A stretch of 64,000 nt of DNA, taken from NCBI RefSeq assembly GCF_009914755.1, contig NC_060944.1; one strand, given 5' to 3'. Below the pieces are notes generated by a model. The model saw nothing but the letters and a program-made list of their open reading frames with translations, ran no database searches and was not told where the DNA came from. Shown here one piece after another: positions 50,701 to 53,700 of the stretch (the first letter of the stretch is position 1; each line of letters begins with the position of its first letter). The position numbers were made by a program, and so were the translations under genes. This stretch comes from the human T2T-CHM13v2.0 reference genome, Homo sapiens.

Positions 50701-53700
50701 CCCTCCTTCTGGGGTGGTGGTGGGTAGGGCATGACCCTATCCTCAGGGCAGCAGGTGCCTGCCTGAGTGGCTTCTTTCTCCAAGCATGAGCCAGGACTCT
50801 GCCTGGACTTTTGCTAGACTTTAGCAGGTTGGGTTAATTGTAATTTAGCCACGACTAGAAGCTGGGCCTGGCTTTAGGTGCATCAGCCTCAGCATCCTTT
50901 TTCCTTTCTTTTTTGATGGTTAATTTTACATGTCAAAGCCTCAGCATCTTGAGGTTGGTTCCCTCACCACCCTGCCTACTCACACTTGGTCGGGGTCAAC
51001 ACAGGGAAGCCTGTGTTTTGCAACACTTTCTGGAAAGACAGCAGGGCTTCTACAGCTGTGCTGTCCAGTATGGTAGCCACTGGCCACAGGTGGCTACTTC
51101 AATTTGAATTAAGCAAAATAAAAAATTTGGCTCCTTAGTGACACTAGCCAAAATTTTAAGTATGCACCAGCCACGTGTGGTGTAGTGCAGATATAGCCCA
51201 TTTCCGTCAGCACAGAATGTTCTATTAGAGCTGTTCTAGAGTTCAGTCCTTTGGGCCAGGGGACCCCTAAGCCGGGAACATGGACCTCAAACCACATGGG
51301 GGATTTCTGAAAGGGCAATCGGCAGAGGCACTTTTCCGGCCTGGAGCCGGCTCTGCGCAGCCAGCACGGGTCTCTTGCTAGCAGTACTGGAATCTGGGCG
51401 CCAGCCTGGCTGAGGAGCAGGTCCGTGTGCCACACTGGCTGACAACAGGGAGGTAAATTACGGATTTTTTTAATGCCATGAGGGGAGAAGATAAAGATAA
51501 AAATAAAAAATGAAAGGGGTCAATCACGAGAGGGGATGAACTGAACTGTCCTGTAGGAGAGTGGGGTCTTAGGGAGGTCCCTTTGCTACTGCCTCACCTG
51601 ATTTTGTGACAGTCACATTCTTCTGGCCGCTTTTTCTTCAGGTGACCTCGGACTTCCCTCAGGTTCTTAATTTTGTTCTGCAGGGTTTCAATCTGAGGGA
51701 GGGGCAGAAGAGGAGGCCTTGAAACCTTCAAGGCTGGACAACAAAGACTTGGCCTGGTGACTGCCCCCACGCTGCCGTGTCTGTGCTCAGCAGCGGCAGC
51801 CTGCACTCCCCGGGCCCCAGGGCAAGCACCGGCATGTCTGGGTGGGGAGGAGGTACTTGTTCTGCCTGAAGGAAGCCCGCCTTCTCCTCCAGCCAGCCCT
51901 TGCAAGGGAACCGAGTCATTTTTCCGGCCTGGCCTGCGCAGGAACCCGCTGAGCCCACTGAGGCCTCCAGTGTCTCCCCTGGGTTTGATGAAAGGCCTCC
52001 TGTAGCGTAGACTTCTTGTAAGTCAAAAGGGGGACAACGTGGCTAAGCCATCGTCCCTCAGACGGCCTGGGCAGGAAGCTATCTGTCTCATGCTGGGACT
52101 GACACCTATCCCCGCGTTGAGGAATCTGTGGGGACCTCACTTCACCTCTCCAGCCTCTTCCCTGGGTCTGGCCTCACTGCCCTCCCACTGTGAACCGGGG
52201 GTCCTGCCAGGCCCGTGGTGGCCGAGAGCATGCTCCTCTCCCGCTCTCCACTCACCTCGTGGTCGATGTGCAGCTTGTGGTCTTTCCAGGCCTGCAGGGA
52301 CTTGTACAGGTCCAGGTCACACTGGACTGTGTCGTTCTCTAGGATGTAGCACCTGCTTGAGAGAAGGGATCACGTGTGGTTCGGAGGTGGTGGAGGGGGA
52401 GCAGCCCAGGTGCCCAAGAGGTGTGGGAAGCCCTTGCCGAGGTCTGTCCTGTCCCCTTCACCCTCGACTTCCACCTGGACACTCACCGATGTGTCACTTT
52501 AATGGGGTTGGCGGCTGAATAGTCGGGAAGGCCTCCAGTGCCACTGAAGTCCCCACCATCCTTGTCATCTTGGTCCTCAGGGGCCCAAGAGGTGTGGGAA
52601 GCCCTTTGCCGAGGTCTGTCCTGTCCCCTTCACCCTCGACTTCCACCTGGACACTCACCGATGTGTCACTTTAATGGGGTTGGCGGCTGAGTAGTCGGGA
52701 AGGCCTCCAGTGCCACTGAAGTCCCCACCATCCTTGTCATCTTGGTCCTCAGGGGCCCAAGAGGTGTGGGAAGCCCTTTGCCGAGGTCTGTCCTGTCCCC
52801 TTCACCCTCGACTTCCACCTGGACACTCACCGATGTGTCACTTTAATGGGGTTGGCGGCTGAGTAGTCGGGAAGGCCTCCAGTGCCACTGAAGTCCCCAC
52901 CATCCTTGTCATCTTGGTCCTCAGGGGCCCCTGGCCAGTGCCGCTTGGTGAGGTTTCGGGGCTGGGCGGCATCACCCAGGCCTACGTGGTACACCCTGCC
53001 GTCCACCTCGATGGCCACTGAGCGGATGGAGCGACTGCGGACATAGCTGGCCTTGTACTCTGTGGGCATTAGAGGAGTGGCAGAGTTAGGGAGGCAGGAA
53101 AGGCTGGCCAGGCTCCCAGGGCAGTGGGTCCTTCATCAAGATAGGGCCGGGCTTCCAAGCATGAGGCTCAGCTTTGCCTGCGACTCGAGGGGTCGTGGAA
53201 TCTACCCGCCTGCTCGCAGATCCTGGACCGCAGGGGAGGGCCTCGAGGTGATCACACCGGCAAGACGGAAGTCCTGGAGCCAAGAAGCCACTGACTCAAG
53301 AGGATTTCAAGCGAGAGCTGCTTGCGGGTAAACAAATGGCGGTACATCATCTGTACAACGGAATATGCGACCAGAACCAGGAGCGAGGTTCTGATTCACG
53401 CTAGAGCGTGGATGAATGTCAAAAGCAGGCGGAGTGAAACCAGCCAGACACAAAGCGGGCTCGTATTGTTACATTCTATTTATAGGAACTACCCAGAATA
53501 GGTAAATCTATAGCGGCAGAAAGAAGATTGGTGATTGCCAGGGGCTGGGGGAGAGGGTAGTGAGGAGTGACTGCTTTGTGGGTACGGGGTTCCCTTTTGG
53601 GGTGATGAAATGTTTTGGAACTAGGTAGAGGTGTGCAACACTGTGAACCTATTAAATGCCTCTGCATTGTATATAATTGTAAAAATGGTGAGTTTGATGT

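What the first reader, a model, noticed from the sequence alone, without database searches (positions are those of the whole stretch)
52412..52930. SULF2 exon-end/splice-donor triplication: three identical 5' splice sites 172 nt apart
Seen: three tandem units start at 52412, 52583 and 52755. Each contains the last ~100 nt of coding exon 12 ([11 protein letters not shown]...KVTHR) plus ~72 nt of intron, including the donor CG|GTGAGT. Donors therefore occur at exon boundaries 52831, 52659 and 52487 with identical context. The intron is 478 bp; it would be ~134 bp with one unit. Any transcript that passes the first donor reads CAT CGG TGA, an immediate stop just after the RSIR/RNLTKR furin-type sites. 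Inference: copy number could act as a dial on productive SULF2 splicing. Use of a distal donor would give an NMD substrate or a truncated sulfatase lacking most of the C-terminal subunit. The extra donors could instead be U1 decoys.
Basis: partly seen in the sequence, partly recalled or inferred. Interest (0 to 1): 0.85.

Follow-up and report, generated by a model that had tools for sequence, protein, structure and literature searches.

The report
SULF2 exon-end and splice-donor triplication
In this human reference genome, a 172-base piece spanning the end of a SULF2 exon and the start of the next intron is present three times in a row, so the intron holds two extra full-strength splice donors that can only yield a truncated message; whether they lower SULF2 output is untested.

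Summary
Window 52407-52930 (SULF2, minus strand) is a 172-nt tandem array of 3.1 copies. Units 1 and 2 are identical at 172 of 172 positions. Unit 3 has one substitution and a 1-nt deletion. Each unit carries 100 nt of exon end plus 72 nt of intron, including the same donor. The array's only genome-wide matches are its own three units.

Only the first donor (52831) gives an open frame. The other donors, intron retention and 89-nt pseudo-exons all stop at codon 603-629. The RefSeq "exon" 52659-52728 is an alignment equivalent, with an identical coding sequence.

Neighbouring annotation suggests CHM13 has one more unit than the older reference, so copy number probably varies.

Published rules pull both ways. 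Exon definition favours donor 1; the 134-nt distance to the acceptor favours donor 3. An FGG junction duplication of the same design wrecks splicing.

My best reading: a young junction duplication that is mostly spliced from donor 1, with some loss to decay. The "dial" idea is plausible but untested. It is a new member of a known kind.

The parts
52407..52930 (-). Whole 172-nt tandem array, 3.1 copies, spanning the exon 12 / intron 12 junction of SULF2
   Evidence: TRF: period 172, 99% matches, score 1027. The repeat finder: 3 copies with spacing 172/172. The only 3 matches in the CHM13 genome are these units.
52759..52930 (-). Unit 1: real exon end (52930-52831, aa 569-602) plus the first 72 nt of the intron (52830-52759)
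   Evidence: The annotated exon is 52831-53059 in all NM models.
52587..52758 (-). Unit 2: an exact copy of unit 1 (172 of 172), lying wholly inside the intron
   Evidence: u1==u2 is True; alignment A1.
52416..52586 (-). Unit 3: 171 nt, with a C>T at 52519 and one A missing from the A-run at 52434-52435. Its donor keeps the original 134-nt distance to the acceptor.
   Evidence: intron lengths.
52825..52833 (-). Donor 1 (TCG|GTGAGT), the only productive 5' splice site
   Evidence: It matches the consensus at 7 of 9 positions, mid-range among the 31 annotated donors of the window. The open frame is kept only with this donor.
52653..52661 (-). Donor 2, an identical 9-mer. It would give a 401-nt exon and a 306-nt intron, with a stop at codon 603.
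52481..52489 (-). Donor 3, an identical 9-mer. It would give a 573-nt exon and a 134-nt intron, with a stop at codon 603.
52827..52829 (-). In-frame TGA immediately after codon R602, met by any transcript that reads through donor 1
   Evidence: Translations; sequence.
52659..52747 (-). Candidate 89-nt pseudo-exon in unit 2. Its acceptor-like site CCCCTGAG|G is formed at the unit junction and it ends at donor 2. Inclusion gives a stop at codon 629.
   Evidence: The site has 15 of 20 pyrimidines upstream but G at -3, which 0 of the 33 annotated acceptors in the window have.
52487..52575 (-). Candidate 89-nt pseudo-exon in unit 3, built the same way. Inclusion gives a stop at codon 629.
52404..52415 (-). 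12-nt stretch just past the array that matches the first 12 nt of the unit (52930-52919) at 10 of 12 positions. This is the likely microhomology at which the first duplication arose, and it is the extra 0.1 copy in the TRF count.
   Evidence: Sequences; TRF 3.1 copies. That it caused the duplication is my inference.
52831..53059 (-). SULF2 exon 12 (coding exon 11, 229 nt, aa 526-602), preceded by a 6310-nt intron
   Evidence: Annotation; coding sequence rebuilt; intron length.
52352..52358 (-). Common acceptor of the intron, a tandem AAG|CAG|G site. RefSeq models use both 52355 and 52352.
52729..52900 (-). The 172-nt 'intron' of Gnomon models XM_054323702 and XM_054323703. It is exactly one unit long, has GT..TG ends, and is not a real intron.
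   Evidence: Coordinates; ends read. The coding sequence built with this 'intron' is identical to the MANE-type one, 2613 nt.

Best explanation
This is a young tandem triplication of the SULF2 exon 12 / intron 12 junction. It is probably variable in copy number, and it most likely arose by slipped or unequal exchange at a 10-of-12-nt microhomology. It lengthens an originally ~134-nt intron to 478 nt and places two more full-strength donors inside it, each heading an 89-nt pseudo-exon candidate. Productive SULF2 mRNA can only be made from the first donor. I think the first donor is the one mostly used, because the 229-nt exon is defined across itself after a 6.3-kb upstream intron. Under this reading the extra units are largely tolerated intron sequence. 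They probably divert a minority of transcripts into products that stop at codon 603-629 and are degraded: later-donor use, pseudo-exon inclusion or intron retention. Shown here: the structure, the identity of the donors and the reading-frame consequences. Inferred: the origin, the copy-number variation, which donor wins, and the size of any loss.
For: Structure and uniqueness.

Frame consequences: the canonical path is open, while donor 2, donor 3 and full retention stop at codon 603. The five tested pseudo-exon acceptor positions (three inclusion combinations for the main one) stop between codons 603 and 629.

Annotation: all 20 SULF2 transcript models in the annotation encode the donor-1 junction. 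The two models that seem to use 52659 have an identical coding sequence.

Geometry: the upstream intron is 6310 nt. Exon sizes with donors 1, 2 and 3 are 229, 401 and 573 nt.

Literature: PMC9225289 (Results read) reports that minigenes with two identical donors in an exon-definition setting used the upstream one exclusively. It also reports a general preference for the smaller exon, with 250 nt as the boundary of its largest exon-size class.

Pseudo-exon acceptor: it has G at -3, seen in 0 of 33 annotated acceptors in the window.

Copy-number difference: the enhancer piece that contains the array is 1156 nt and the piece abutting it is 986 nt, a spread of 170. Of 405 abutting runs of such pieces on chr20, 356 have a spread of 2 or less, and this spread is the third largest.

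Predicted RNA accessibility of the three donors is about equal at 0.35, 0.34 and 0.30, so structure gives no reason to prefer one.
Against: The same paper reports that equal-strength donors next to a short (<250 nt) downstream intron, with a long upstream intron, show a heightened preference for the downstream donor. Donor 3 sits exactly 134 nt from the acceptor. Exon and intron GC are level at 0.62 and 0.60, which that paper links to intron definition.

The FGG junction duplication of the same design gave mainly intron-retaining and pseudo-exon transcripts, with correct splicing rare.

Steady-state mRNA collections under-represent decay substrates. The genotypes behind the RefSeq mRNAs are unknown, so the annotation cannot exclude a large loss.

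No RNA or population data were available here.
Confidence: 0.5

Rival explanations
1. One reading: the downstream donors, pseudo-exons or intron retention take a large share of transcripts. Each added unit then substantially lowers productive SULF2 mRNA, and unit number is a strong cis determinant of SULF2 output.
For: The three donors are identical. Donor 3 keeps the original 134-nt intron, while the productive donor is pushed to 478 nt. PMC9225289 reports downstream-donor preference for equal-strength pairs beside a short downstream intron. The FGG 403-bp junction duplication makes correct splicing rare and is disease-causing. GC is level between exon and intron. Copy number probably differs between references.
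Against: All 20 annotated transcript models give the donor-1 product. Exon-definition minigenes with identical donors used only the upstream one, and exons above 250 nt are disfavoured. If, as one search suggests, the older reference already holds two units, multi-unit alleles are common, and SULF2 is a well-expressed gene (that last point is recalled). The pseudo-exon acceptor is poor, with G at -3.
Confidence: 0.33
2. Fully silent intron expansion: the extra units are never engaged by the spliceosome in a way that matters, so this is a neutral length polymorphism of an intron.
For: Only canonical products are annotated. The identical-donor minigenes used only the upstream donor.
Against: Two consensus-grade donors inside a 478-nt intron are unlikely to bind no U1 at all (inference). 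The FGG precedent points the other way. This reading overlaps with the best explanation at its low-effect end.
Confidence: 0.12
3. Assembly artefact: CHM13 really has fewer units, and the third is a mis-assembly.
For: Units 1 and 2 are identical, which is the situation in which assemblers can miscount. The older reference seems to hold one unit fewer.
Against: The whole array is only 524 nt, far shorter than the long reads used for this assembly (recalled). Unit 3 carries its own two differences. A difference from the older reference is what a real polymorphism would also give.
Confidence: 0.03

Closest known systems
[quoted passage not shown]
   Same: A tandem duplication made of the last part of an exon (169 nt there, 100 nt here), the GT donor and the start of the intron (232 nt there, 72 nt here). 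The duplicated donor sits inside the intron, and aberrant products end in premature stops. A pseudo-exon made from a cryptic acceptor plus the duplicated donor was seen there and is predicted here.
   Different: The FGG case is a rare disease allele with two copies, and its splicing was tested in minigenes. SULF2 has three copies in a reference haplotype, a much shorter and GC-rich intron, and no RNA test. The FGG intron is not in the short-intron range.
Intron creation or extension by tandem genomic duplication (Rogers model; Hellsten et al. 2011, PMC3265369, part 1 of 4 read; review PMC3443670, section 8 read)
   Same: A tandem duplication duplicates a splice signal, and the redundant copy can be removed as intron so that the protein is unchanged.
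   Different: No new intron is made here. An existing intron is lengthened by copies of its own 5' end. The only AG|GT to AG|GT excisions inside the array (52818 to 52647 or to 52475) would merely collapse units at the RNA level, and they use weak sites.
Competing identical 5' splice sites in designed minigenes and in the ALTssDB survey (Carranza, Shenasa and Hertel 2022, PMC9225289)
   Same: Equal-strength donors compete for one acceptor. The outcome is expected to depend on exon size and on whether the flanking intron is under or over about 250 nt.
   Different: The SULF2 locus is a natural hybrid: a long upstream intron, with 478, 306 and 134 nt to the acceptor from the three donors. Both proximity rules therefore apply at once and predict opposite winners.
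Poison or decoy exons (general concept; recalled, no paper read here)
   Same: Intronic segments with a strong donor whose inclusion or engagement gives a premature stop or intron retention.
   Different: Known poison exons are usually conserved and regulated. These units are recent copies, and their acceptor is poor.

Membership tests
Tandem repeat / VNTR | Head-to-tail copies of one unit in the same orientation | tested here: met
   Period 172, 3.1 copies, 99% matches; spacing 172/172.
Tandem repeat / VNTR | Copy number differs between haplotypes | tested here: inconclusive
   Indirect only. The enhancer piece holding the array is 170 nt longer than its abutting partner, whereas 356 of 405 such runs on chr20 differ by 2 nt or less. 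The 172-nt GT..TG 'intron' in two T2T-only models fits the same picture. No haplotype data were available.
Exon-intron junction duplication with duplicated donor (FGG type) | The unit holds the exon 3' end, the GT donor and the intron start, repeated in tandem | tested here: met
   100 nt of exon plus 72 nt of intron per unit, with identical donors at 52831, 52659 and 52487.
Exon-intron junction duplication with duplicated donor (FGG type) | Aberrant transcripts are actually produced | not testable with these tools
   No RNA data here. Only the predicted products could be computed.
Intron gain by tandem duplication (AGGT model) | A new intron splits a formerly continuous exon, using the duplicated AG|GT as donor and acceptor | tested here: not met
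   The exon is not split in any NM model. The 172-nt 'intron' of the two XM models has GT..TG ends and leaves the coding sequence identical. The AG|GT pairs lie in the intron part and only collapse units.
Annotated alternative 5' splice sites | Two or more donors joined to one acceptor in distinct transcripts | tested here: not met
   Of 20 transcript models, 18 use 52831. The 2 that use 52659 give the same coding sequence.
Poison exon | Functional acceptor and donor flank a segment whose inclusion gives a premature stop | tested here: inconclusive
   The stop at codon 629 is met and the donor is full strength. The acceptor has 15 of 20 pyrimidines but G at -3, seen in 0 of 33 real acceptors in the window. 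Inclusion itself is not testable here.
Dispersed repeat / transposable element | Many copies elsewhere in the genome | tested here: not met
   There are 3 matches genome-wide, all at this locus. No masked-repeat row overlaps it.

The most novel reading that the evidence does not exclude
Unit number (1, 2, 3 or more) at this junction is a common human polymorphism that sets the fraction of SULF2 pre-mRNA spliced productively. Each added unit moves the only productive donor 172 nt further from the acceptor and adds a decoy donor or pseudo-exon that feeds decay. Because junction reads with less than about 100 nt of upstream anchor map equally to donors 1 and 2, the variant and its transcripts are invisible to short-read pipelines. 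It could then be the hidden causal variant behind SULF2 expression associations.
Probability: 0.2. Interest if true: 0.75.

Novelty: new member of a known kind. Interest (0 to 1): 0.5.

Why it matters
SULF2 edits heparan sulfate outside the cell. It is studied in cancer, liver disease and lipoprotein clearance (recalled).

A structural variant that triplicates a splice donor, where only one of the three copies gives protein, is a natural experiment. It sets exon-definition and intron-definition proximity rules against each other at equal splice-site strength. The same design is disease-causing in FGG.

If unit number varies among people and changes output, it would be a cis-acting expression variant that short reads cannot see. 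It would also be a warning for annotation: RefSeq's own T2T models already contain a spurious 172-nt intron here.

If it is silent, it shows how robust exon definition is to strong decoy donors.

The duplicated coding part covers aa 569-602. This includes the Ser-Gly at 583-584, which I recall as the reported glycosaminoglycan attachment site of Sulf-2; I could not check this because the paper is not held.

Tried and rejected
Chance or a dispersed repeat: rejected.

A real alternative exon at 52659-52728, as the merged exon list suggests: rejected. The coding sequence is identical to the canonical one and the 'intron' has GT..TG ends.

An in-frame product from any other path: rejected. None of the later-donor, retention or pseudo-exon products I built stays open.

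RNA structure as a tie-breaker between donors: no useful difference, with mean unpaired probabilities of 0.35, 0.34 and 0.30.

Dating: uninformative. Zero substitutions between units 1 and 2 gives 0-21 Myr. One substitution for unit 3 gives 0.15-32 Myr. Both assume a recalled rate of 0.5e-9 per site per year and ignore homogenisation between units.

SULF1 paralogue: the homologous acceptor has the same phase, and no comparable array lies in the 1.5 kb upstream. The preceding SULF1 exon was not reached, so this says little.

Literature on this locus:
- SULF2 + VNTR: 5 papers, none relevant by title or abstract.
- SULF2 + tandem repeat: 48 papers, 25 listed, none about this array; the hits are cell-line typing, microsatellite-instability markers and telomere-factor papers.
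- SULF2 + splice variant + hydrophilic domain: 5 papers.
- SULF2 + sQTL: 1 paper, which mentions SULF2 only in its reference list.
- SULF2 + nonsense-mediated + intron retention: 2 papers, neither relevant.
So I found nothing in print on this array.

Papers not held: PMC2755875, the Sulf-2 glycosaminoglycan paper by DOI and PMC2791625. PMC11912018 was opened (abstract and outline only) and was not relevant.

Not run: no protein database search. A single exon (75 aa) would only reach proteins of 41-131 aa, and a joined protein may not be typed. No primate or other human haplotype could be reached with these tools.
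Full report
WHAT IS THERE

SULF2 runs on the minus strand. Reading the transcript strand from 53120 to 52200 shows the 229-nt exon 52831-53059, then an intron, then the next exon starting at 52355 or 52352.

Tandem Repeats Finder reports a single array in 51500-54000. 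It spans 52407-52930, with period 172, 3.1 copies, 99% matches and score 1027. The repeat finder gives three copies spaced 172 and 172.

In transcript sense the units are:
- Unit 1, 52930-52759.
- Unit 2, 52758-52587, identical to unit 1 at 172 of 172 positions.
- Unit 3, 52586-52416, 171 nt. It has one C>T at 52519 and one A missing from the A-run at 52434-52435.

Each unit is 100 nt of exon end plus 72 nt of intron. The 20 nt around each donor are identical, with the last exon base at 52831, 52659 and 52487. A search of the whole CHM13 genome with one unit found three matches, all of them these units. No masked repeat overlaps the array.

The 12 nt just past the array (52415-52404) match the first 12 nt of the unit at 10 of 12 positions. 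This is the extra 0.1 copy in the TRF count. I take it as the microhomology at which the first duplication arose; that is inference.

WHERE IT SITS IN THE GENE AND THE PROTEIN

I rebuilt the coding sequence from the annotation, fetching the eight exons outside the window. It is 2613 nt and encodes 870 aa. The exon is the 12th of the transcript and the 11th coding exon, covering aa 526-602.

Counting along the translations:
- The RSIR motif is at 535-538.
- The RNLTKR motif is at 560-565.
- The duplicated coding part is aa 569-602.
- Codon 602 (CGG) spans the junction.

A review states that the mature Sulfs are 75 + 50 kDa heterodimers made by furin-type cleavage at two putative sites (passages of PMC3890690).

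THE ODD REFSEQ EXON

The merged exon list shows an exon at 52659-52728. It comes from two Gnomon models, XM_054323702 and XM_054323703. These split the exon at 52901, skip 52900-52729 and resume at 52728. The skipped stretch is exactly 172 nt and has GT..TG ends. The resulting coding sequence is letter-for-letter the same as the MANE-type one. It is an alignment equivalent created by the repeat, not an isoform.

All 20 SULF2 transcript models (13 NM, 7 XM) therefore encode the donor-1 junction.

CONSEQUENCES OF EACH SPLICE CHOICE

- Donor 1 to the acceptor keeps the frame open.
- Donor 2 (401-nt exon, 306-nt intron), donor 3 (573-nt exon, 134-nt intron) and full intron retention all read ...KVTHR and then TGA at 52829-52827, which is codon 603.
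- The junction between units creates an acceptor-like site, CCCCTGAG|G, with 15 of 20 pyrimidines upstream. Together with donors 2 and 3 it delimits 89-nt pseudo-exons at 52747-52659 and 52575-52487. Including one or both gives a stop at codon 629.
- Four other AG positions that I tried gave stops at codons 603-624.
- The only canonical GT..AG excisions that restore the exon joined to a later donor run from 52818 to 52647 or to 52475. They merely collapse units at the RNA level and use weak sites.

All the premature stops lie with nine exons still downstream, so decay is expected (the 50-55-nt rule is recalled). Any protein made would be aa 1-602, lacking 268 of the 305 residues that follow the second furin motif.

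HOW STRONG ARE THE SIGNALS

The donor TCG|GTGAGT matches the consensus at 7 of 9 positions. That is mid-range among the window's 31 annotated donors, which score 6-8. The pseudo-exon acceptor has G at -3. Among the 33 annotated acceptors of the window, the -3 base is C in 16, T in 14, A in 3 and G in 0, so this acceptor is poor.

The 72-nt intron piece holds three G-runs. I recall these as intronic enhancers that become silencers when exonic, which would favour donor 1.

Predicted RNA accessibility of the three donors is about equal at 0.35, 0.34 and 0.30.

IS COPY NUMBER VARIABLE?

No other human haplotype could be read here. One indirect clue comes from RefSeq's "hESC enhancer" elements, which are laid down as abutting pieces of equal size. 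On chr20, 356 of 405 abutting runs differ by 2 nt or less in T2T coordinates. The run at this locus is 986 nt (51218-52203) and 1156 nt (52204-53359). The spread of 170 is the third largest of the 405, and the longer piece is the one that holds the array. TRF finds no other array in 51500-54000.

The simplest reading is that CHM13 carries one unit more than the older reference on which the pieces were defined. That reference would then have two units and a 306-nt intron. The 172-nt GT..TG "intron" in the T2T-only models fits the same picture but is weaker evidence. I put roughly 0.7 on a real 2-versus-3 difference.

AGE

With a recalled rate of 0.5e-9 per site per year, zero substitutions between units 1 and 2 allows 0-21 Myr. 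One substitution for unit 3 allows 0.15-32 Myr. The array is young on a mammalian scale, but nothing finer can be said. Exchange between units would also erase differences.

The SULF1 paralogue has the homologous acceptor in the same phase and no such array in the 1.5 kb upstream.

WHICH DONOR WINS?

Carranza, Shenasa and Hertel (PMC9225289; abstract, Results part 1, passages) place the switch between intron and exon definition at about 250 nt of intron. Among pairs of near-equal strength they found three things:
- Exons flanked by long introns prefer the upstream donor.
- Exons with a long upstream and short downstream intron show a heightened preference for the downstream donor.
- Exons of 250 nt or less are preferred.
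Their minigenes with two identical donors in an exon-definition setting used the upstream donor exclusively.

The SULF2 locus is a hybrid of these cases. The upstream intron is 6310 nt and the exon is 229 nt with donor 1, which favours donor 1. Donor 3, however, keeps the original 134-nt distance to the acceptor, and exon and intron GC are level at 0.62 and 0.60, which favours donor 3.

A direct precedent points to harm. [quoted passage not shown] It also gave a pseudo-exon product made from a cryptic acceptor plus the duplicated donor, and only rare correct splicing. It causes afibrinogenemia when homozygous (passages of PMC9052919).

Against a large effect in SULF2: only the canonical product is annotated, and multi-unit alleles seem to sit in two reference genomes.

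VERDICT

I commit to the following. This is a real, young and probably copy-number-variable junction triplication. Donor 1 makes the mRNA, and the extra units cost a minority of transcripts to decay (confidence 0.5). A fully silent expansion (0.12) and an assembly artefact (0.03) follow.

COMPARISON WITH WHAT IS KNOWN

In design this matches the FGG junction duplication. It is related to intron creation by tandem duplication (Hellsten et al., PMC3265369, part 1 of 4 read; review PMC3443670, section 8), but it fails that model's defining feature because no exon is newly split. It is not an annotated alternative-donor event.

I found no paper on this array in five SULF2 searches. Supplementary catalogues were closed, so it may be listed there. 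I rate it a new member of a known kind.

PRACTICAL POINT

Junction reads with less than about 100 nt of upstream anchor fit donors 1 and 2 equally. Only long reads, or the C/T at 52519 for donor 3, can tell the donors apart.

Noticed in passing
window 52352-52358 (minus strand): The acceptor of the exon after the array is a tandem AAG|CAG|G site. RefSeq models use both 52355 and 52352 (100- versus 97-nt exon), which adds one arginine (…THRRC… versus …THRC…).
   Followed up: partly
window 57218-57907: A G-rich minisatellite lies in the 6.3-kb SULF2 intron. It is GGGGTGGGAG-like on the plus strand, with nested periods of 13, 24, 48 and 72 and up to 55 copies at 72-82% matches. It is C-rich in the transcript.
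   Followed up: no
window 37482-37559: A (GCA/CAG) run of about 13 hexamer copies sits inside NCOA3 coding exon 37393-37678. I take it to be the NCOA3 polyglutamine tract; that it is polymorphic is recalled.
   Followed up: no
window 51218-53359: The whole junction and array lie inside two abutting RefSeq 'H3K4me1 hESC enhancer' elements of unequal length, 986 and 1156 nt. I used this only as a clue to a length difference between references. Any enhancer role of the repeat is unexamined.
   Followed up: partly
chr20, T2T 34505792 and 64629751 (outside the window): Two other runs of abutting hESC-enhancer pieces have even larger length spreads, 499 and 270 nt. These presumably mark other insertions in CHM13 relative to the older reference.
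   Followed up: no
L013 416-664 (SULF1 intron, chr8): A 41-nt-period array of 6.2 copies at 63% matches sits upstream of the SULF1 exon homologous to the SULF2 exon after the array, within GC-rich sequence that looks like part of a composite retroelement. It was not identified.
   Followed up: no
window 49252-49293: A perfect two-copy 21-nt tandem repeat lies in a SULF2 intron.
   Followed up: no
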